A stretch of DNA of 20,000 nucleotides from an uncultured virus (IMG/VR IMGVR_UViG_3300020685_000001) (IMGVR_UViG_3300020685_000001), one strand, 5' to 3'; positions 7,524 to 16,853 are shown, numbered from the stretch's first letter. Made by a program: numbers and translations. Notes: generated by a model not told the origin, from the sequence alone.

Positions 7524-7550
7524 AAGTTAAACAAGGGGGACAAGCCCCCC
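7524..7550 (-). terminator. Probable (leaky) intrinsic terminator
   Basis: Minus strand GGGGG-CUUGU-CCCCC followed by UUGUUUAACUUU, just after the stop of the 159-aa gene. Confidence 0.55.
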
Positions 7551-7558
7551 ATCAGAGA

Positions 7559-8038
7559 TTAAGCCTGATATGTTGTTGGATTAGCGTTACCGTTTGAATC
7601 ACGAACTACATAAGTGATAACAACAGTAGCAGCACCAGTTGTCAAAGCAGAAGCTTCAGTAGCTGTGTAAGTAATTAACGCATCGGTTGTGCCAACGTTT
7701 ACAGATGTAGGAGCAAAACCAGCAGATAAAGCCTGGGTAATAGAACCAACAGAAGTAATAGTTGAGGCAGCAGCAAAATCAACACCACCAATAGTAATCT
7801 TCAAAGTAGTAGCAGCGCTAAATACTGTAGAAGTGATGATTTGAACACCAGTAACACAAGCACCTGCAGGAATAGCACCAATTGTGCCAGTCAATGCGGT
7901 ATTAATACCAGTATATGTGAAAGGAATAGTCTGTGCAACTACCGTTGCGCCTGTATTACGAACAGTACCAGCTGTAGTGCCAGTTGTGTTTTTAACAGTA
8001 CCTAATAGCCAAGGGCCTAAATGTGTAGCAAATCCCAT
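7559..8038 (-). CDS. Candidate capsid decoration/cement protein (159 aa)
   Basis: Thr/Ala/Gly-rich beta protein; first co-oriented gene after the capsid gene; GGAG SD at 8046-8049. Function inferred from position. Confidence 0.65.
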   Translation of the reverse strand: MGFATHLGPWLLGTVKNTTGTTAGTVRNTGATVVAQTIPFTYTGINTALTGTIGAIPAGACVTGVQIITSTVFSAATTLKITIGGVDFAAASTITSVGSITQALSAGFAPTSVNVGTTDALITYTATEASALTTGAATVVITYVVRDSNGNANPTTYQA

Positions 8039-8043
8039 AATAA

Positions 8044-8116
8044 ATCTCCATACGATAAGGCTTACTAGTTTGTATGGTATCTGCCGGGGCAGTCTAATAA
8101 GCCGGGTTTCCCGGTT
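8044..8116 (-). ncRNA. Structured cis-regulatory RNA leader with probable pseudoknot(s)
   Basis: 10-bp stem GGCUUAUUAG/CUAGUAAGCC (8094-8103 with 8059-8068); inner CUGC/GCAG hairpin (8081-8092); loop CCAUAC (8072-8077) complementary to GUAUGG (8048-8053), which overlaps the SD; 5' CCGGG (8110-8114) has two alternative CCCGG partners. Confidence 0.65.
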
Positions 8117-8207
8117 TCCTGTAGTTTACCCTATTTTTAATTTTTGCAACACCCTTTTTAGGTAAAATATCCAAAATCAGATAAATAATTTGGACGGGGT
8201 ATGGGCA

Positions 8208-8696
8208 ATGAAATTCACAGTGAAAAAAGTCGATATAAGAAACCCAGCAATTCAGAGTCTACTTCTCTTTCTTCAGAAAAAGATTTTGCCGGAAGACCAA
8301 CCTTACCAACCGACTCGGGGCCATTGGTGGATAGCCTACGCAGAGTGTGGGAAGCCCGTGGCTTTTGCGGGTCTGGTGCGTTCGATCAAGTGGACCGATA
8401 CAGGGTACTTATGCAGGGCTGGTGTAATGGGTGGCTTTACTGGTCATGGACTTCAATTGCGTTTAATTAAAGCTAGACTATCCCAAGCAAAACGACTTGG
8501 TTGGAACTGGTGTATCACAGATACAACAAATAACCCCGCATCAAGCAACTCTTTGATTAATGCTGGCTTTAAGATATATACTCCTGCAAATAAGTGGTCT
8601 TTCAGAAACGCAATATATTGGAAATATAAGGTAAATGCTGATGCCGTACAAAGACGAGAGCGTAAGAAAAGCGTATCATCAACAACGCAGCCGTGA
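8208..8696 (+). CDS. GNAT-family N-acetyltransferase (162 aa)
   Basis: Acetyl-CoA motif A-like YLCRAGV....TGHGLQLRLI and motif B-like NPASSNSLINAGF; ATG 8208 preferred over the TTG at 8190. Confidence 0.85.
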   Translation: MKFTVKKVDIRNPAIQSLLLFLQKKILPEDQPYQPTRGHWWIAYAECGKPVAFAGLVRSIKWTDTGYLCRAGVMGGFTGHGLQLRLIKARLSQAKRLGWNWCITDTTNNPASSNSLINAGFKIYTPANKWSFRNAIYWKYKVNADAVQRRERKKSVSSTTQP

Positions 8697-8994
8697 ATAT
8701 TATTTAGCTAATAAAGAAAAAGTAATAGCCGTAAGCAAAGCTAGTAGAGCTATAGGAAAAGCAAAATGGGTAGATTTTAAAACTTCCCTTAAGTGCACGC
8801 AGTGTGGGTTTTCCCATATTGCAGCCCTAGATTTCCACCACACAAACCCAAACGAAAAAGAAAACCTAGTCAGTAAACTAGTCAGCAGTGGTTGTTACGC
8901 TGCTGCAATGGAAGAGGTTAAAAAGTGCGTAGTCTTATGCGCTAACTGCCATAGGGTACATCACTACGAAGAAACAAAAAACCCCGCCTTGTGA
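8641..8994 (+). CDS. HNH endonuclease with Zn-binding cysteines (117 aa)
   Basis: CTQCG...LDFHH...EEVKKCVVLCANCHRVHH; N-terminal MPYKD...REYY..NKEK basic helix typical of phage HNH proteins. Confidence 0.9.
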   Translation: MPYKDESVRKAYHQQRSREYYLANKEKVIAVSKASRAIGKAKWVDFKTSLKCTQCGFSHIAALDFHHTNPNEKENLVSKLVSSGCYAAAMEEVKKCVVLCANCHRVHHYEETKNPAL

Positions 8995-9002
8995 GCGGGG
9001 TT
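8976..9002 (-). terminator. Intrinsic terminator of the major capsid transcript (possibly bidirectional)
   Basis: AACCCCGC/GCGGGGTT stem with a 7-nt loop and a U-run on the minus strand; about 20 nt after the capsid stop and overlapping the HNH stop. Confidence 0.85.
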
Positions 9003-9023
9003 CTCATTGACTCTAGTTCTATT

Positions 9024-9941
9024 TTAGTTAGAACCGGAAGAGCCCCAGACACCGAGTGGGTCTGACCAACCGAAGCTGTAACGCTCACGGGATTTGTAAC
9101 GTACGTTACCTGTGTCGAAGTCACCGTCCATAGAATTCTGGAGTGGTGTACGCTCGAAGTGCTTCAAACCGTTTGGAACGTCGGTAGTTAAGAACCAGCC
9201 GTTTGTGTCGGTCAAGAAGTGGTTAACTGTGTAACCTTCAGGAATTGTACCGTTGTTGTTGATAGCGCTAATATCGTTATCAGTTGTACCAACACGCAAT
9301 TTAGTTTCGAGCAAACGAGTTGCAACGAACATCAAAGCAGGTGGAACTACCAATTTACGTGGTTTAGCAGCGATCAAAAGACCACGCTCGTCAGTCCAAG
9401 CAGCAATTTGAATAACAGCAGCTTCCAAAGAAGTTTCATTCAAGTCGACAGGTACAGCAGCAGTGTTGCTGTTTGTGCCGCCAGAAACCAATGGGTGAGC
9501 AGTGTTGAACAAAGATACGCCGTCGCCGCCGTTGTACGAACCAGAGGTGTTGAAACCATTATTCAATACAGATGCAGCTTTAACTTGCTTGGTGTAAGCC
9601 ATAGCACGAGCCAATGCTTTAGTGTAACGAGCAGACAAGCTGTCGTACAAGTTATCTTCAATCGCTTCTTCAGTGATTGAGAAACCTAAAGCGATGGTTT
9701 CGTGTGAGTAGCGTGTGGACCATGCTTCTTGTGCATTATCGTAAGAGATAGCGCCGCCCTCGTTTTTAACAGGGGCTGCAGAGAAACCGGACAACTTGGT
9801 TTCTTCTTCGAAAGAACGCTCAGAAGATTCAGTTTCGTAAATCTCTTTGTGCTCTTCGCCGTAGCGTGCGTATTCTAATCCGAACAATGCATTCAGACCT
9901 GGGAGTAACTCTTTAAGGAGTTGTGAACGTGAAATAGCCAT
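9024..9941 (-). CDS. Major capsid protein (305 aa)
   Basis: MAISRSQLLKELLPGLNALFGLEY...SERSFEEE..LSGF...K.EG..I.YD...DGDFDTGNVRYKSRERYSFGWSDP signature; strong AAGGAG SD (9949-9954); followed by a terminator. Confidence 0.95.
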   Translation of the reverse strand: MAISRSQLLKELLPGLNALFGLEYARYGEEHKEIYETESSERSFEEETKLSGFSAAPVKNEGGAISYDNAQEAWSTRYSHETIALGFSITEEAIEDNLYDSLSARYTKALARAMAYTKQVKAASVLNNGFNTSGSYNGGDGVSLFNTAHPLVSGGTNSNTAAVPVDLNETSLEAAVIQIAAWTDERGLLIAAKPRKLVVPPALMFVATRLLETKLRVGTTDNDISAINNNGTIPEGYTVNHFLTDTNGWFLTTDVPNGLKHFERTPLQNSMDGDFDTGNVRYKSRERYSFGWSDPLGVWGSSGSN

Positions 9942-12171: not shown

Positions 12172-12573
12172 TTATGCTCTCGTAATGCCACGAGGATCTT
12201 CTACTACGGCTTCTACGGAATCATCGTTGATAATTCTGAACTCACGGCCATGAATCTTGAGGCGTGAACCAGAACTAGGGCGAATCAACACGAAGTCACC
12301 AACTTTGCACAGCGGACCGCTGGGAAAACGCTCTTTGTCGGCATAAGCATCAGGTCCAATGTCCATAACAAAAAGCACGGGTGTTAGGACTTCTTCGTGT
12401 TGCTGTGTTACCGCTGACTTTAATAAACCGCTTTCATACTCTTCTTCAACCTGTGGAACCATACACAAGATATGGTAGCCAGCAGCTTTTGGAAGTTGTG
12501 TTGCTTTTGCTTCAGGTTTTTCAGGTAGCTTTGAGAGATTCCCCAAGGCATCGCTGATAATGATGTCACTCAT
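12172..12573 (-). CDS. groES: Co-chaperonin GroES-like protein (133 aa)
   Basis: LP...GY.IL...mobile loop (ESGLL)...V..IGPDAY.D..RFP.GP.CKVGDFVL...SG.RLKI.G.EFRIINDD.VEAVV; start re-called to ATG 12573, overlapping the upstream stop. Confidence 0.85.
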   Translation of the reverse strand: MSDIIISDALGNLSKLPEKPEAKATQLPKAAGYHILCMVPQVEEEYESGLLKSAVTQQHEEVLTPVLFVMDIGPDAYADKERFPSGPLCKVGDFVLIRPSSGSRLKIHGREFRIINDDSVEAVVEDPRGITRA

Positions 12574-12754
12574 CTTCATCCTTTGTTTTTTGCTCACGGT
12601 CTTTAATAAAATCCACAGCCAGGGCAAGACCACGGATAATCCCTGTTGTGTGTTTGTACTCATCGTACGCTTTGCAGCTGCCATCGGCAACGGATTGTGC
12701 TCTAGACTCGATCATTAGATTTAACTCTCGGACTAGGTATTCATACTCGGTCAC
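12566..12754 (-). CDS. Small conserved head-region protein (62 aa)
   Basis: G....YDEYK...GIIRGL motif; ATGA overlap with the portal stop. Confidence 0.75.
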   Translation of the reverse strand: MTEYEYLVRELNLMIESRAQSVADGSCKAYDEYKHTTGIIRGLALAVDFIKDREQKTKDEDE

Positions 12755-15279
12755 TCTTTAGTTTCCTTTTTTGGTTGTGCTGGTTGCATCTCAGCTAGTT
12801 GTTCAGTCTTCATCATCTCGTGGAGGTGTTGGCGTCCTTGAGCGTTTTTCTCATGTCTAAGCTGGGCATCTTTTTCTACTGCCTTACCTAAAATCTCGCC
12901 ACCTTTTTGGATACGTTGGGCTTTAAGTTTAGCCTGGCTCATGCCTGCCTGATTAATAGCATTACCTGCAGCAATCAAAGCCTGAGACTTGATACGCTCT
13001 TCTTCGATACGTAACTGTTCTTGCTTGAGCTGGAAGTCCTGTTGGTCTTTAGTAGCTTTACGCTGTTGCTCTTGTTGCTTGATTTGCAGCTCTTGCATTT
13101 GGATCTGGATAATCGGATCTTGTTGTTGCTGAGCATTTTGCTGGGCTTGTTGAGCTTGCTGGTTTTGCTGTAGCAATTTCTGTGCAGCTTGGGCCATCAT
13201 CGGAGCTAACTGAGCTTCCATCTCTGGAGTAAATTCAACATCTTCCTCTTCACCCCTATCATCAAGTTGCTGTGGAGGCATTGGCATACCCATCTGTTGT
13301 GCAATCTGTGCACGATACGCATAACCTAAGTGCTCATTGACGTGAGCCATCATAGCCGAGCCAATCTGCTGAGCTTGTGGGTTATTTTGTAGTAACGCTT
13401 GGATCTTAGGATCTTGCATTGCCGCCATGTGGACCTGGATATGCGCTTCATGGTCTTGGTAGCTAAACGCCTTAACCGGCTTCATCATGAGAATATTTTG
13501 ATTCTCTGTGACTGGGTCAGCAGGTTTTTGGTCTTCTGCCATTGGTACAAGTTTTTGAGCATTCTTGATACCAAGAACTTCAATCATCTGGCGGTGGAGG
13601 AGCGGGAGGTTGTAGAGTTGCGGTGCCGATTGAGCCAGTTGGAGCACAGCTTGATACTGTACGATTTTCTGCGCCATCGTGCTCGCATTAGGGTCGCTAA
13701 CCGGTAAAACCTCAACATCATCGTAATCCGATTTTTTAGCTGCTGGAGTACCATCTTCAGGTTCATATTCATAATCCTCATCTGTGTAGTCCGCAATAAT
13801 TACTTTGAGGAGGTTGAACTCCTGCTTCATTGAGTAATGCAAACGGGCTTGGATAGCCGACATTACCTTGAGGGTGCGCTCCAAAATAGCCAAAGTAGTT
13901 CCAACAGGTGCATTACCACCCATATCAGATACCTGGAGATCTCCGGCGGAAACAAATGCACGACCTTCTTGAACTATTTGATTGAATAACGCCATCAAAG
14001 TTTGGCTAGGCTCCTTATACGGCAGGAGCATAATGTTGTCTTTAATGACACCTGATGGTACGTCTACATCTCGGAATTCTCCTGGGCTGATTGGGGTGTC
14101 GTCTCCCTTAACCCGTAAGCCTCGTGCTTTGAGACCGCCCGGTAAATTGCTGAGGGTCCCTGCGTCGACGAGCTGGCGAATAATAGTAGTAGCGGAACGA
14201 GCATAACCGCCAATGAGGTGAATGAGTCCATATCCATAAAATCCAAATCCCGGTACGTATTGATAGTGCACGAAATGTGTACGTTTCAATTTAAGGTTAT
14301 CACCCTCATACCAGTTGCGGCGAATCGCAAGCACTCTTCCGGTGCTCTTTTCTATAGTAATGATGTAAGGTAGTGCAATTCCGTCCTCATCTTCGTGCCC
14401 GGGTAGATCATAGTCCACGTGCATCTCAATAATTCTGAAACGATTATCTGTAGTTGCAGTAAATCCTTGCTCTTCTGCTTTGCGTTTCTCGATGTCATCA
14501 AGAATGTTTGTTGGCTCGCCCAAATCAATATCACGCCAAAAGCCAGCAGCCTGAAGCTTTTTCACATCATTCTTGGTCTTGCGCATTACGTGGCTGATGC
14601 GACCAGCGTTATCTAAGTTTGATGCGCCATAAGGAACAACTAAATCTTCTGCAGGTATAAACATTGCTACTTGACGGCCAAGGGCTGGGTCAAAATACAC
14701 CTTTTTAAATGCTGAACCAGCTAAAGGCAAATTCCATAAAAGCTTTTCATGCTCTGGGCGATACTCGCTCATCTGCTCAGTCAAGCGATAATTCATATCC
14801 TCCGATACACGGTATGATGCCTCTTTCTTGCTCGTAGTCTCTTTTCCAATAATTTTTGTCTTAACGGGACCCATCGCCGGAAAGGTCTCCATAATAGCTT
14901 CGGACTGGAACTTGACCACCGCTTCAGCAAGCATTGGATGGTACACCCCGCAGGCACCCGCCCATGGTTCAGTAGTTTCCTCATACTTTAATCCCAATAG
15001 TTTTAGACCTTCGACATAGGTATCAGCCCAATCTTTACGAGCAGACACGTCTGCATCAAACAAACCAATTAATTCACTAGCAATAGACTGAAGTTCACGT
15101 TCATCCATGTCCTCAGCAAGGTTTTCATTAAACTTGTCGGAACCTGTGTCCTCTTCTTCGATACCACTCTCGGTGTCACCGATTTCATCACCTGGGCCAA
15201 GAATCTCAATCTCGAGTGCTGGCTCTTGTGTATCTGCGATCCCTGCCGGGGCTTGGTAAATGCCTTTATCTATTGCCAT
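12751..15279 (-). CDS. Portal protein with long Gln-rich C-terminal coil (842 aa)
   Basis: Directly follows the large terminase; SRKDW...Y..GL.LLG, HPMLAEAVV.FQ, LPLAGSAFKKVY.D, RQLVDAGTLSNLPGG.K motifs; size and helical tail as in P22-type portals. Confidence 0.9.
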   Translation of the reverse strand: MAIDKGIYQAPAGIADTQEPALEIEILGPGDEIGDTESGIEEEDTGSDKFNENLAEDMDERELQSIASELIGLFDADVSARKDWADTYVEGLKLLGLKYEETTEPWAGACGVYHPMLAEAVVKFQSEAIMETFPAMGPVKTKIIGKETTSKKEASYRVSEDMNYRLTEQMSEYRPEHEKLLWNLPLAGSAFKKVYFDPALGRQVAMFIPAEDLVVPYGASNLDNAGRISHVMRKTKNDVKKLQAAGFWRDIDLGEPTNILDDIEKRKAEEQGFTATTDNRFRIIEMHVDYDLPGHEDEDGIALPYIITIEKSTGRVLAIRRNWYEGDNLKLKRTHFVHYQYVPGFGFYGYGLIHLIGGYARSATTIIRQLVDAGTLSNLPGGLKARGLRVKGDDTPISPGEFRDVDVPSGVIKDNIMLLPYKEPSQTLMALFNQIVQEGRAFVSAGDLQVSDMGGNAPVGTTLAILERTLKVMSAIQARLHYSMKQEFNLLKVIIADYTDEDYEYEPEDGTPAAKKSDYDDVEVLPVSDPNASTMAQKIVQYQAVLQLAQSAPQLYNLPLLHRQMIEVLGIKNAQKLVPMAEDQKPADPVTENQNILMMKPVKAFSYQDHEAHIQVHMAAMQDPKIQALLQNNPQAQQIGSAMMAHVNEHLGYAYRAQIAQQMGMPMPPQQLDDRGEEEDVEFTPEMEAQLAPMMAQAAQKLLQQNQQAQQAQQNAQQQQDPIIQIQMQELQIKQQEQQRKATKDQQDFQLKQEQLRIEEERIKSQALIAAGNAINQAGMSQAKLKAQRIQKGGEILGKAVEKDAQLRHEKNAQGRQHLHEMMKTEQLAEMQPAQPKKETKE

Positions 15280-15290
15280 GTCGTTTGTCC

Positions 15291-16853
15291 TTAAACGTTA
15301 TAATACCCAGCGCCTCTTTTAGATTTGAACCATTTAATCTCTTCTGGTTCGTCGGTAGGTAAGCGCAAAAAGCCCCCCTGCCTAAATCTCATTAGCGCTA
15401 ATGTCATTGAGTCCACTAAGTCGTCGTGTTCGCCCGAAGGGAATGCCGCAACCTCGTCTATCAGCTCTTCTGCCCAGCGTGTAGCTGGAGCCCATACTTT
15501 ACCAGATGCAAAGAAATCTGCAACTGAATTTAACCTCGAAATCTTGTCCTGACCTTTCCCCGGACTAAATTCCCCGACAGGGATTCCCATCCTTCTAAGT
15601 TCTTGAATGAGAGGCGCACCAGCCGCCTTTTTCTCAACAATAAGAGAGTCCGGCTCATACGCTTCGTATAGTTCATACGCTTTCGCCTTGAGGTCCGGAA
15701 ATTCCAAGCGCTCCTTATAGGAGTCCAAAAGGATAATGTTTGGTAGGTTGTGGTCTTCCTCATTGTAGAAAACACCCCAGGTTGTGCAAGTTGAGAAGTC
15801 ATTTACGGTTTTCTTTTCGTGGGCCGTATCCCAAGACTGAATAATATATTCACAAGCGGGAGGTCTTTCGGCTTCCCAAATTTTCCACCACTCTCTCTTC
15901 ACAATCGCCGAGCTATCGCTCGTCGGCTGTTGCATATATTGTGCCATCCATTTGGCGTTAGGTAATTCAGTATGTAGGGCTTCAAGTTCTTTAAGGGACC
16001 AAAACTCTGGCCAAAGCGGTTTGCCGCTATCCAAAATGGCTGGCAACTCAATCACACGCCATTCATCCCCACCACGCTGGGCTGCACTTTTTACTACCTG
16101 AGCAGTCAAGTCCCGCATCGACCAGCGGGTCATCACGATTACAATAGAGCCTCCAGGTTGTAAACGCTGACGAGGACCAGAGGTAAACCACTCATAAACT
16201 TTATCGTAGACTTCTGGATTGAATGCAGCTATGGCAGCCTCTTGCTCAGAATGTGGATCGTCAATGATGAGAAGATCAGCTCCCTTACCAGTAACAGCAC
16301 CGCCCACACCGATAGCGAAATAATCACCGCCAAAATTAGTATTCCAACGGCCTGCCGCCTTTGAGTCTGACTGGAGTTCAATAGCAGGGAAAAGGCGTCT
16401 ATACAGAGGGTTGTCCACCAGGTTCCTAACTTTACGGCCAAAGCCCACAGCCAGCTCAGCGGTGTGCGAAGTTTGGATAACTTTCTTCTGAGGAAACTTC
16501 CCGAGGAACCAAGCTGGTAGCAAATAAGAAGCAAACTCAGACTTAGTGTGACGGGGAGGCATATTAATGATGAGACGTTTACATGTACCATTGGCTACAT
16601 CCTCAAAAGCCTTTGCCATTTTCTCATGGTGCCTTCCATGAATAAACTCAGGCCAGACGCTGTTAACAAATTTCATGAAGTCTTGCTGGACTTCTTCCCT
16701 TGCATCCCGAGTATCTAGTTCTTCTAGTATTTCTAACGTAGATGCAGCTTCTTCAGCCGGCATGTCCTTTAAAAAACGGGCACGTTCTTCCGGAGATAGA
16801 CTTTTTAGAATCTCAATCGGGTCTAATTCAGCTTGGATAACGGTATCAGTCAT
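15291..16853 (-). CDS. terL: Terminase large subunit (520 aa)
   Basis: Walker A-like INMPPRHTKSE, Walker B LLIIDDP, coupling motif VMTRW, RNase H-like nuclease QSWDTA...VEKKA.G...HDDLVDS. Confidence 0.95.
   Translation of the reverse strand: MTDTVIQAELDPIEILKSLSPEERARFLKDMPAEEAASTLEILEELDTRDAREEVQQDFMKFVNSVWPEFIHGRHHEKMAKAFEDVANGTCKRLIINMPPRHTKSEFASYLLPAWFLGKFPQKKVIQTSHTAELAVGFGRKVRNLVDNPLYRRLFPAIELQSDSKAAGRWNTNFGGDYFAIGVGGAVTGKGADLLIIDDPHSEQEAAIAAFNPEVYDKVYEWFTSGPRQRLQPGGSIVIVMTRWSMRDLTAQVVKSAAQRGGDEWRVIELPAILDSGKPLWPEFWSLKELEALHTELPNAKWMAQYMQQPTSDSSAIVKREWWKIWEAERPPACEYIIQSWDTAHEKKTVNDFSTCTTWGVFYNEEDHNLPNIILLDSYKERLEFPDLKAKAYELYEAYEPDSLIVEKKAAGAPLIQELRRMGIPVGEFSPGKGQDKISRLNSVADFFASGKVWAPATRWAEELIDEVAAFPSGEHDDLVDSMTLALMRFRQGGFLRLPTDEPEEIKWFKSKRGAGYYNV

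What the first reader, a model, noticed from the sequence alone, without database searches (positions are those of the whole stretch)
8044..8116. Pseudoknotted RNA leader that can pair over the ribosome-binding site of a capsid-associated gene
Seen (minus-strand RNA): CCGGG-AAA-CCCGGCUUAUUAG-A-CUGCCCCGGCAG-AUA-CCAUAC-AAA-CUAGUAAGCC-UUAUC-GUAUGGAG-AUUUAUU-AUG. A 10-bp stem encloses a small hairpin. CCAUAC in the loop can pair with GUAUGG overlapping the GGAG SD (pseudoknot 1). The 5' CCGGG can pair with the inner hairpin's CCCGG (pseudoknot 2) or form a local hairpin that competes with the main stem. Inference: a translational switch (protein-feedback element, riboswitch or ribozyme-like fold) tuning a structural protein. 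It may correspond to an orphan Rfam motif such as Polynucleobacter-1; that is from memory and unverified.
Basis: partly seen in the sequence, partly recalled or inferred. Interest (0 to 1): 0.72.

Follow-up and report, generated by a model that had tools for sequence, protein, structure and literature searches.

The report
Knotted leader RNA of phage cement gene
The flagged 75 bases are a real, evolutionarily conserved, doubly knotted RNA that forms the whole untranslated leader of a capsid "cement" protein gene in hundreds of lake and ocean phages; it belongs to no catalogued RNA family and its function is untested.

Summary
On the minus strand, 8114-8048 holds four interlocked helices: S1 (5' end with a hairpin loop), M (10-bp stem), H (3-bp hairpin) and K (6 bp, overlapping the Shine-Dalgarno by 2 nt).

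A single-sequence fold is unremarkable (z -0.53). Comparison settles it. On an unfitted alignment of 66 homologous leaders, 87% of cells pair, against 31-40% for slid controls, and 20 of 24 pairs show compensatory changes.

S1:loop is a perfect Watson-Crick helix of 5 bp or more in 119 of 122 distinct leaders, in 11 sequence types (0 of 2380 mismatched-partner controls). A sequence-divergent marine class keeps the same four helices.

The element occurs once per phage genome. It follows a predicted promoter closely, so the mRNA 5' end is paired, and it always ends at the start codon of the gene after the major capsid gene. That gene encodes a jellyroll cement protein.

No Rfam family matches. 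Polynucleobacter-1 is excluded. The orphan Mu-gpT-DE motif occupies the same position in a roseophage but does not match here.

Function is inferred only: a cis-acting leader setting mRNA stability and ribosome access. A riboswitch or ribozyme is unlikely.

The parts
8123..8150 (-). Predicted sigma-70-type promoter of the cement gene: -10 TAAACT at 8128-8123, -35-like GTTGCA/TTGCAA at 8150-8144
   Evidence: Read. In 59 distinct promoter-leader sequences a -10-like hexamer lies 6-10 nt before S1 in 50. In the other 9 the script picked a hexamer 5 nt too far upstream, by eye. The consensus scan did not list this site, and the spacer is short here (15-16 nt). Prediction only.
8039..8116 (-). Whole leader RNA (predicted +1 near 8116 to the base before ATG)
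   Evidence: Covariance model R1 hit at window 8036-8116, 70.3 bits, E 1.4e-13. One copy per phage genome.
8110..8114 (-). S1, 5'-terminal strand CCGGG; pairs with loop of H (pseudoknot 2) or with S2
   Evidence: Perfect Watson-Crick helix of 5 bp or more with the H loop in 119 of 122 distinct leaders, in 11 sequence types. Controls with partners of another S1 type: 0 of 2380.
8102..8106 (-). S2, CCCGG; alternative local partner of S1, sharing GG with helix M
   Evidence: S1:S2 of at least 4 Watson-Crick bp in 91 of 119 leaders, against 5.5% in controls. Absent in 28. It is broken in the CTAGG lineage, where S1:loop is kept by compensation.
8094..8103 (-). M 5' strand GGCTTATTAG
   Evidence: 10 of 10 pairs show changes on both sides. 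Predicted de novo by RNAalifold.
8081..8092 (-). Hairpin H: CTG / 6-nt loop CCCCGG / CAG; the last five loop bases pair with S1
   Evidence: 3 of 3 stem pairs compensatory and 100% of cells paired. The variant with a 4-nt loop (L084, L092) also lacks S1.
8072..8077 (-). K 5' strand CCATAC, in the junction enclosed by M
   Evidence: K helix of at least 5 bp in 63 of 65 and 61 of 61 distinct leaders, in at least 10 sequence types.
8059..8068 (-). M 3' strand CTAGTAAGCC
   Evidence: As for the M 5' strand.
8048..8053 (-). K 3' strand GTATGG (pseudoknot 1); overlaps the SD by 2 nt
8046..8049 (-). Shine-Dalgarno GGAG
   Evidence: Spacing of 7 nt to the ATG.
7559..8038 (-). 159-aa gene: capsid cement/decoration protein (jellyroll)
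   Evidence: No Pfam, PHROG or PDB sequence hit.
AF2 model pLDDT 86.
hhalign to the 'cement protein' of DSL-LC04: probability 96.4%, E 1.3e-9.
7535..7550 (-). Terminator-like hairpin after the cement gene
   Evidence: A strict scan found one within 100 nt of the stop in 27 of 79 loci.
8977..9005 (-). Strong terminator after the major capsid gene (9024-9941)
   Evidence: 12-bp stem followed by a T run. The capsid gene has Pfam Phage_capsid_4 and Mu-like_gpT hits.

Best explanation
The element is a cis-acting, double-pseudoknotted 5' leader of the capsid cement-protein mRNA.

Transcription and fold:
- The gene after the major capsid gene is transcribed from its own promoter.
- The first transcribed bases (S1) pair into the loop of a small hairpin (H).
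- H sits on top of a 10-bp stem (M).
- A second strand from the junction enclosed by M (K 5') pairs with the segment just 5' of, or overlapping, the Shine-Dalgarno (K 3').
- The result is a compact fold that ties down both ends of the untranslated region.

Proposed action: the fold sets the output of an abundant virion protein after transcription, in two ways.
- It hides the mRNA 5' end from 5'-end-dependent decay.
- It fixes how the ribosome-binding site is presented. The SD is held at the edge of helix K, or partly inside it, so K must be accommodated or opened by the 30S subunit.

The local S1:S2 hairpin is most simply a folding intermediate made early during transcription. It would be displaced when M forms, because the two share two bases.

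Shown: the four helices, their conservation, their position and their single-copy linkage to the cement gene. Inferred: the promoter and +1, and every functional step.
For: Structure:
- Searches cover the freshwater class. Searches give an independent set of 80 loci not used to build the model, with 80 of 80 hits ending at the ATG. Searches cover marine class 2: 99.6% of cells paired versus 23-46% slid, with 10 of 24 pairs compensatory.

Linkage to the gene:
- The model hits 78 of 80 first-set loci. L023 has no leader and L059 holds only 11 nt upstream.
- It hits 5 of 5 MAG loci.
- It hits once in each of five records searched: this window's record, three related virus records of 58-63 kb and one MAG.
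- The order capsid gene, terminator, promoter, leader, cement gene holds in 74 of 80 loci. The other 6 lack upstream sequence.

5' end:
- A -10-like hexamer lies 6-10 nt before S1 in 50 of 59 sequences. S1 would therefore start at about +1 to +4.
- Established knowledge, recalled and not from a call here: RppH and the 5' sensor of RNase E need unpaired 5' bases, and 5'-terminal stem-loops stabilise bacterial mRNAs such as ompA.

Ribosome-binding site:
- K 3' ends 0-3 nt before the SD or overlaps it in every class.
- From the SD to the ATG the sequence is A/T-rich.
- Synonymous sites of the first 30 codons vary freely, so the structure stops at the start codon.

Against a ligand pocket:
- Only about four unpaired positions are at least 90% conserved.

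Expression in a relative:
- In the published HTVC027P infection transcriptome, the gene behind the class-2 leader (gp62) is classed late.
- Its average TPM at the last time point is 28.6 thousand. That compares with 11.9 thousand for gp60 upstream and 74.6 thousand for the capsid gene (PMC12753301, Table S3 rows seen).
- This fits a separate transcript start or a stabilised message.
Against: - There is no experimental datum for this RNA.
- A simple 5' hairpin would suffice for stabilisation. Four conserved helices over such divergence suggest a more specific role.
- S1 covaries with two mutually exclusive partners in 91 of 119 leaders. That is the signature of a switch rather than of a static fold.
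- SD overlap is absent in 48 of 65 freshwater leaders, so occlusion cannot be the universal mechanism.
- Rare variants lack S1 altogether (L060, L069, L084, L092), so 5'-end capture is not indispensable.
- The promoter in this window has a short 15-16 nt spacer, and the consensus scan did not list it.
Confidence: 0.45

Rival explanations
1. It is a protein-responsive translational operator. Free cement protein, the capsid protein, or another phage or host factor binds the folded leader. Binding traps or blocks the 30S subunit and so couples cement synthesis to capsid assembly. Known examples of this kind are the S15 and S4 leader pseudoknots and the T4 gene 32 leader.
For: - A pseudoknot abuts or includes the SD in all classes.
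- The shape is conserved while the sequence varies, which suits recognition of a fold.
- The product is a stoichiometric assembly protein.
- Other leaders at the same position in related phages also involve the SD region. The Mu-gpT-DE model in CRP-902 pairs CCTG with the CAGG of CAGGAG. The Pag-Yong1 hairpin loop is complementary to GGAGACGG, by eye.
- Precedents are recalled knowledge, not from calls.
Against: - The 159-aa protein is neutral and rich in Thr, Gly and Ala, with only 4 Lys/Arg (counted by eye from the sequence). It has no RNA-binding family hit.
- The SD is free in most freshwater leaders.
Confidence: 0.27
2. It is a small-molecule riboswitch. Ligand binding would choose between S1:S2 and S1:loop and thereby alter K and SD access.
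For: Two mutually exclusive, covarying partners for S1. A pseudoknot next to the SD, as in several translational riboswitches (recalled).
Against: - Very few conserved unpaired nucleotides.
- S2 is absent in 28 of 119 leaders.
- The downstream gene is a virion protein with no metabolic link.
- No Rfam riboswitch model matches.
Confidence: 0.07
3. It is an RNA that acts on RNA polymerase in cis, like the put RNAs of phage HK022. It would let transcription from the cement promoter read through the terminator after the cement gene into the downstream head and tail genes.
For: It lies immediately after a promoter. A terminator-like hairpin follows the cement gene in the window, and co-oriented structural genes lie downstream.
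Against: - A terminator was detected after the gene in only 27 of 79 loci by a strict scan.
- The fold extends to the SD and ATG, which points to translation.
- No similarity to put was tested or seen.
Confidence: 0.06
4. It is a self-cleaving ribozyme at the 5' end of the message.
For: A compact double pseudoknot at a transcript 5' end is superficially like HDV-type folds.
Against: - The strand order here is S1, M, H, S1', H', K, M', K'. As recalled, HDV-like ribozymes have a different order.
- No ribozyme family in Rfam matches at E up to 10.
- There is no conserved catalytic-core nucleotide set.
- Cleavage next to +1 would remove almost nothing.
Confidence: 0.02

Closest known systems
Mu-gpT-DE RNA motif (Rfam RF03012; orphan, typed 'sRNA' in Rfam; its origin in Weinberg et al. 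2017 is recalled, and neither that paper's main text nor its supplement could be used)
   Same: - Same genomic niche. In Roseobacter phage CRP-902 the motif (72.3 bits against a 49-bit cut-off) runs up to and includes the SD and ATG of the gene after the gpT-like capsid gene.
- That gene is a homologue of the 159-aa cement protein: hhalign probability 95.6%, E 1.2e-8.
- The CRP-902 capsid protein is 55.9% identical to the window's.
- By eye, the junction layout is alike: outer helix, A, hairpin, AC, about 7 nt, GA, outer helix 3' strand.
   Different: - The Rfam model does not match the window's genome, HTVC023P or HTVC027P. The only hits at E up to 10 in a related phage lie away from its leader.
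- No hit at gathering score in 36 related loci.
- Not listed at E up to 10 on three leaders.
- It has 53 positions and two nested helices of 4 and 5 bp. The present element has about 78 nt and four helices, two of them pseudoknots.
- In Mu-gpT-DE the outer helix itself covers the SD.
- Whether the two are diverged homologues or replacements is open.
Pseudoknotted translational operators of bacterial and phage mRNAs: E. coli rpsO (S15) leader, alpha-operon (S4) nested double pseudoknot, phage T4 gene 32 leader (all recalled, not from calls)
   Same: A pseudoknot in the 5' leader that abuts or includes the ribosome-binding site of the regulated gene. A compact fold that could sit on the 30S platform.
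   Different: No sequence or model relationship. Binding by the gene product is unknown here. Those leaders are not described as capturing the mRNA 5' end.
5'-terminal stabiliser stem-loops (for example the ompA leader) and, more distantly, exoribonuclease-resistant viral RNAs (recalled)
   Same: The first transcribed bases are base-paired, with a predicted overhang of about 0-3 nt. In xrRNAs too, the 5' end is locked by a pseudoknot.
   Different: Here the 5' end pairs into a distant hairpin loop within a four-helix fold. Resistance to any RNase is untested, and the +1 is only predicted.
Polynucleobacter-1 motif (RF01718; listed for Burkholderiales and fresh water/estuary in the table of PMC2864571, passage seen)
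   Same: Freshwater origin and a presumed cis-regulatory role.
   Different: A 141-position model with no match in this genome or in three related virus records. Not listed by the full Rfam scans.

Membership tests
Mu-gpT-DE (RF03012) | Scores at or above the Rfam gathering score (49 bits) with the family covariance model | tested here: not met
   0 matches at E up to 10 in the window's genome. The positive control, CRP-902, scores 72.3 bits.
Mu-gpT-DE (RF03012) | Lies downstream of a Mu gpT-like major head gene | tested here: met
   The capsid gene at 9024-9941 has a Pfam Mu-like_gpT hit at 39.4 bits. The leader follows it in 74 of 80 loci.
Mu-gpT-DE (RF03012) | The 3' end of the motif contains the SD and start codon of the next gene | tested here: met
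   The Rfam consensus ends in GGAGAT..ACATG (alignment). The window element ends at GGAG...ATG. The downstream genes are homologous.
Mu-gpT-DE (RF03012) | Consensus of two nested helices (4 bp outer covering the SD, 5 bp inner hairpin) | tested here: inconclusive
   The window has a 10-bp outer stem that does not cover the SD, a 3-bp hairpin and two pseudoknots. Similar junction letters were seen by eye only.
Polynucleobacter-1 (RF01718) | Match to the family covariance model (gathering 37 bits) | tested here: not met
   No match in G000 or in three related virus records. The only hit is 14 bits, in an unrelated MAG contig.
Small-molecule riboswitch | Highly conserved unpaired nucleotides forming a ligand pocket | tested here: not met
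   Only an A after M 5', an A(C) after H 3' and GA before M 3' reach about 90% in 65 and 61 distinct leaders.
Small-molecule riboswitch | Mutually exclusive alternative pairings linked to an expression platform | tested here: inconclusive
   S1 has two covarying partners in 91 of 119 leaders. No link from that choice to K or the SD could be shown.
Self-cleaving ribozymes in Rfam (HDV-like, twister, pistol, hatchet, hammerhead and others) | Match to a family model | tested here: not met
   Nothing at gathering score. No ribozyme family is listed at E up to 10 on three leaders.
Autogenous pseudoknot operators (S15, S4, T4 gp32 type) | Pseudoknot includes or abuts the ribosome-binding site | tested here: met
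   K 3' overlaps the SD or ends within 3 nt of it.
Autogenous pseudoknot operators (S15, S4, T4 gp32 type) | The regulated protein binds its own leader | not testable with these tools
   No RNA-protein binding tool is available. The protein shows no RNA-binding family.
5'-terminal mRNA stabiliser | The transcript 5' end is base-paired within a few nucleotides of +1 | tested here: inconclusive
   The spacing from a -10-like hexamer to S1 implies an overhang of 0-3 nt.

The most novel reading that the evidence does not exclude
The fold is a cap-like lock on the mRNA 5' end. The first transcribed bases are tucked into a hairpin loop at a coaxial helix junction. This would make the cement-protein message refractory to 5'-end-dependent decay (RppH followed by RNase E, or RNase J where present). 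It would be a phage analogue of exoribonuclease-resistant RNAs in bacteria. Helix K would couple the locked state to ribosome entry. On this reading the orphan Mu-gpT-DE motif would be a reduced relative doing the same job.
Probability: 0.2. Interest if true: 0.85.

Novelty: new variant of a known kind. Interest (0 to 1): 0.68.

Why it matters
This is a compact RNA fold of about 78 nt with two pseudoknots and exceptionally clear covariation: more than 150 distinct natural sequences and at least 11 variants of one 5-bp helix.

It is carried once per genome by a very abundant group of aquatic phages. The group includes the cultured Pelagibacter phages HTVC023P and HTVC027P. [quoted passage not shown]

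It gives a concrete, testable case of post-transcriptional control of a capsid assembly protein. It also shows that the orphan Rfam motif Mu-gpT-DE lies in the leader of the orthologous cement gene, rather than being an unexplained 'downstream element'.

If the 5'-end capture protects the message, it would be a new way for a bacterial virus to stabilise mRNA.

Tried and rejected
**Rfam**
- The whole window at gathering score gave nothing.
- 7900-8300 at E up to 10 gave only snoZ223, mir-4875 and SmY noise.
- 20 and then 16 related loci at gathering score gave nothing in the first set. In the second set the only hit was Mu-gpT-DE in CRP-902.
- Leaders of L046 and HTVC023P at E up to 10 gave only sub-threshold hits on the neighbouring terminator.

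**Other searches**
- tRNA/tmRNA scan: none.
- Single-sequence folding is not significant.
- DNA similarity to GenBank phages: none.
- tblastn of the 159-aa protein against GenBank phages: none.
- Profile search against PDB sequences: none.
- Foldseek alone gave only weak rows, E at least 2.4e-3.

**Chance hit set aside**
- The model hit at L047/L048 965-1047 (17 bits, E 0.94) lies in coding sequence and was treated as chance.

**Negatives for the leader model**
- Model R1 found nothing in Pag-Yong1, HTVC027P, 023Pt_psg01, CRP-902, Alcaligenes phage QDWS535 or Caulobacter phage GB2A.
- HTVC027P and 023Pt_psg01 were then shown by eye and by script to carry a sequence-divergent version of the same four helices.

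**Not available**

**Literature**
- Searches found no description of this RNA.
- The catalogue of 8,495 candidate structured RNAs from IMG/VR (PMC10690425) may contain it. Its alignment archives could not be read, and a search of the readable tables for three leader strings found nothing.
- The supplement of the paper that introduced Mu-gpT-DE could not be read.

**Earlier notes of this scan**
- Look-ups by place and by sequence returned nothing.

Full report
**1. Setting**

- The window is part of a 35,171-base virus record estimated 53% complete.
- Its minus strand carries a head-to-tail structural module:
  - large terminase, 15291-16853;
  - portal, 12751-15279;
  - major capsid protein, 9024-9941, with Phage_capsid_4 and Mu-like gpT hits;
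  - adaptor and tail genes further on.
- A strong terminator follows the capsid gene (9005-8977).
- Next comes a plus-strand insert with an HNH endonuclease ORF (8635-8994, PHROG E 2.7e-24) and an overlapping 168-aa ORF (8190-8696).
- After that lie the flagged region and a 159-aa gene (7559-8038), which is followed by another terminator-like hairpin (7550-7535).

**2. The observation**

All motif letters below are DNA letters of the sense strand, as printed by the tools.

  - S1: CCGGG 8114-8110 with CCCGG 8088-8084, inside the loop of hairpin H.
  - H: CTG 8092-8090 with CAG 8083-8081.
  - M: GGCTTATTAG 8103-8094 with CTAGTAAGCC 8068-8059.
  - K: CCATAC 8077-8072 with GTATGG 8053-8048.
  - SD: GGAG 8049-8046. 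ATG: 8038-8036.
  - S2, the local alternative partner of S1: CCCGG 8106-8102. It shares GG with M.
- Folding this one sequence says little. The nested minimum free energy structure is no better than shuffles (z -0.53, 58 of 200 shuffles fold as well).

**3. Comparative test, freshwater set**

The best 80 loci were fetched.
- The order is conserved.
  - A capsid-gene homologue (74-98% identity in the best segment) lies upstream in 74 of 80 loci.
  - The other 6 have too little upstream DNA.
Four short sequences and L023 were left out.
  - 87.0% of cells pair, against 30.7-40.5% when the 3' partners are slid by 1-3 columns.
  - 20 of 24 pairs show changes on both sides.
  - The covariation score is 0.547 against at most 0.152. 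None of 500 shuffles reaches it.
- RNAalifold finds M and H on its own, with 12 of 12 pairs compensatory.
- A covariance model of M plus H (R1) hits exactly one place per locus, always ending at the ATG.
  - It hits 78 of 80 loci. L023 has a deletion joining the capsid and cement genes. L059 holds only 11 nt upstream.
  - Two further hits at E 0.94 lie in coding sequence.

**4. Independent sets**

- A second fetch, seeded with a 42%-identical homologue from a MAG, gave 80 new loci. All 80 carry the element at the ATG.
  - Of its 61 distinct leaders, 60 are new. 59 of 61 have an S1:loop helix of at least 5 bp, and 61 of 61 have a K helix of at least 5 bp.
- Pooling both sets gives 125 distinct leaders.
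  - S1:loop is a perfect Watson-Crick helix of at least 5 bp in 119 of the 122 with a complete 5' part, in 11 sequence types.
  - Pairing S1 with the loop of a leader of another type never gives 5 bp (0 of 2380).
  - The three exceptions are L060 and L069 (no 5' S1) and L092 (4-nt loop, no S1).
- In helix M, G-T pairs outnumber A-C by 130 to 14. The selection is therefore on RNA of the sense strand.
- Five of five loci in MAGs have the element, one of them in a Candidatus Methylopumilus bin.
- The model hits once in each of five records searched: this window's record, three related virus records of 58-63 kb and one MAG.

**5. Marine relatives and a second sequence class**

- The capsid protein has relatives in GenBank phages.
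- Model R1 finds the element in two of them.
  - Pelagibacter phage HTVC023P, between capsid gene gp40 and gp41: 38.8 bits, E 1.1e-7.
  - The metagenome-assembled phage DSL-LC04, in front of a gene its depositors call 'cement protein': 27.2 bits.
- Eighty loci seeded with HTVC023P gp41 gave 36 distinct leaders with enough upstream sequence.
  - 14 resemble HTVC023P. Their S1 is CCTAG or ACTAG with a matching loop.
  - 22 form a class that R1 does not detect. HTVC027P and 023Pt_psg01 belong to it.
- That second class nevertheless has the same four helices.
  - S1 is 7 bp: ACTGTAT or ACTATAC, with GTACAGT, ATACAGT or GTATAGT in the loop.
  - H is 2 bp.
  - M is 9-11 bp.
  - K is CCTAG with CTAGG, or CCTAA with TTAGG.
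- On an unfitted alignment of 23 such leaders (22 distinct):
  - 99.6% of cells pair, against 22.8-45.6% slid;
  - 10 of 24 pairs are compensatory.
- Architecture is thus conserved where sequence is not.

**6. Anatomy**

- A -10-like hexamer lies 6-10 nt before S1 in 50 of 59 distinct sequences.
  - In the other 9 the script chose a hexamer that is, by eye, 5 nt too far upstream.
  - S1 would therefore begin at about +1 to +4, leaving the mRNA 5' end paired. This rests on a predicted promoter.
- The strand order is S1, (S2), M, H, S1', H', K, M', K'.
  - S1' runs directly into the 3' strand of H, and one base or none separates the 5' strand of H from S1'.
  - S1 and H can therefore stack as in an H-type pseudoknot, with the 5' terminus at the junction (inference from geometry).
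- M, H and K meet at a junction with few conserved unpaired bases: an A after M 5', an A(C) after H 3', and GA before M 3'.
- K 3' ends 0-3 nt before the SD or overlaps it.
  - In 65 freshwater leaders the overlap is 0 nt in 48, 1-3 nt in 10 and 4 nt in 7.
  - In 21 of 22 marine class-2 leaders, K 3' is followed directly by AGGA or AGAA, so a GGAG-type SD would begin on its last two bases by eye.
- The alternative S1:S2 hairpin has at least 4 Watson-Crick bp in 91 of 119 leaders (controls 5.5%).
  - It covaries with S1 in several types.
  - It is absent in 28.
  - It is broken in the CTAGG lineage, where S1:loop was repaired by compensation.
- Synonymous sites in the first 30 codons vary freely, so the structure ends at the start codon.

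**7. The downstream gene**

- There is no Pfam, PHROG or PDB sequence match.
- An AlphaFold2 model from 45 homologues (pLDDT 86) is a beta jellyroll.
- Its best structural neighbours are phage capsid entries.

|---|---|---|---|
| 7eel_H | cyanophage Pam1 capsid | 10.5 | 110 |
| 8h89_J | Ralstonia phage GP4 capsid | 10.1 | 116 |
| 7dn2_1 | Helicobacter phage KHP30 capsid | 10.1 | 116 |
| 7dou_4 | Helicobacter phage KHP40 trimeric cement protein | 9.7 | 115 |

- The family profile aligns with the DSL-LC04 'cement protein' (96.4%, E 1.3e-9) and with CRP-902 gp56 (95.6%, E 1.2e-8).
- It does not align detectably with HTVC023P gp41 (E 0.24).
  - gp41 shares only the N-terminal motif, by eye.
  - The RNA is therefore recognisable further than the protein.

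**8. Comparison with what is known**

- No Rfam family reaches threshold on the window or on 36 related loci. Nothing relevant appears at E up to 10 on three leaders.
- Polynucleobacter-1 (RF01718) has no match.
- The one Rfam hit in this phage group is Mu-gpT-DE (RF03012), at 72.3 bits in Roseobacter phage CRP-902.
  - It ends at the ATG of the cement-gene homologue.
  - The same model finds nothing in the window's genome, HTVC023P or HTVC027P.
  - The window element therefore fails the membership test, although it occupies the orthologous leader.
  - The two may be diverged relatives or replacements. Junction letters look alike by eye only.
- Papers.
  - Searches found no description of this RNA.
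  - The IMG/VR catalogue of candidate structured RNAs (PMC10690425; passages and the file list were seen) could hold it, but its alignments were unreadable.

**9. Mechanism**

- Shown: a conserved four-helix, double-pseudoknot RNA, single copy, forming the leader of the cement gene.
- Inferred: that it starts at +1 to +4, and what it does.
- I favour a cis-acting element that protects the 5' end and fixes how the SD is offered to the ribosome (0.45).
  - Its complexity, the two partners of S1 and the SD-adjacent helix keep a protein-responsive operator well in play (0.27).
  - A riboswitch (0.07), a put-like antitermination RNA (0.06) and a ribozyme (0.02) are less likely, for the reasons given under the rival explanations.
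- The HTVC027P transcriptome fits a separately started or stabilised message but does not discriminate between these readings (PMC12753301, Table S3 rows).
  - The gene behind the class-2 leader is classed late.
  - It is 2.4-fold more abundant than the gene upstream of it.

**10. Verdict**

- This is a new, well-supported RNA fold in the known category of pseudoknotted mRNA leaders.
- It is positionally equivalent to an orphan Rfam motif, and its function is open.

Noticed in passing
window 8190-8994 (+): An HNH endonuclease ORF (8635-8994) and an overlapping 168-aa ORF (8190-8696, weak GNAT-like hit below cut-off) lie on the opposite strand, between the capsid terminator and the cement promoter. 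HNH homologues occupy the same gap in 13 of 80 related loci, and other loci have 0.5-2 kb inserts there. The site looks like an insertion hot spot for mobile endonuclease genes.
   Followed up: partly
L178:2196-2248 (Roseobacter phage CRP-902): The Rfam orphan Mu-gpT-DE (RF03012, typed sRNA) matches here at 72.3 bits. It ends at the ATG of a homologue of the cement gene, so it is probably a 5' leader rather than a 'downstream element' or free sRNA.
   Followed up: partly
L060:1332-1419, L069:2916-3003: This variant leader has no 5' S1. The H loop GCCTAG is instead complementary to the CTAGG that overlaps the SD (CTAGGAG), so here the hairpin loop may pair with the ribosome-binding site directly.
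   Followed up: no
L084:2923-3003, L092:523-603: This variant has a 4-nt H loop and no S1. The leader starts at helix M, right after the capsid terminator. The loss of both pairing partners together fits the S1:loop pairing.
   Followed up: partly
L023:2950-3003: This is the only locus without a leader. The capsid gene's 3' end, the terminator, the promoter and the leader are missing, and the cement ATG lies out of frame inside the capsid reading frame. It may be a deletion variant or an assembly artefact.
   Followed up: no
L174:2430-2510 (Planktothrix phage Pag-Yong1): The R1 model does not hit. However, the leader of the gene after the capsid gene has a 9-bp hairpin whose loop end, CCGTCT(CC), is complementary to GGAGACGG at the SD. 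This single sequence was read by eye.
   Followed up: no
K 3' strand in related leaders (tails printed): In the commonest freshwater types the K 3' strand holds an ATG followed at once by a stop (GTATGTAAGGA, GCATGTGAGGA), a start-stop pair just before the SD. In the window, the ATG at 8051-8049 opens an out-of-frame ORF across the true start.
   Followed up: no
window 7559-8038 (-), first 10 codons: Residues 1-10 of the cement protein are invariant in 66 distinct sequences, while the third codon positions vary freely. The constraint is on the protein, probably an N-terminal anchoring arm, and not on RNA.
   Followed up: partly
window 12172-12690 (-): A 172-aa ORF between the portal and head genes has weak GroES/Cpn10-like hits (PHROG E 4e-8; Pfam 20.2 bits, just under the cut-off).
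   Followed up: no
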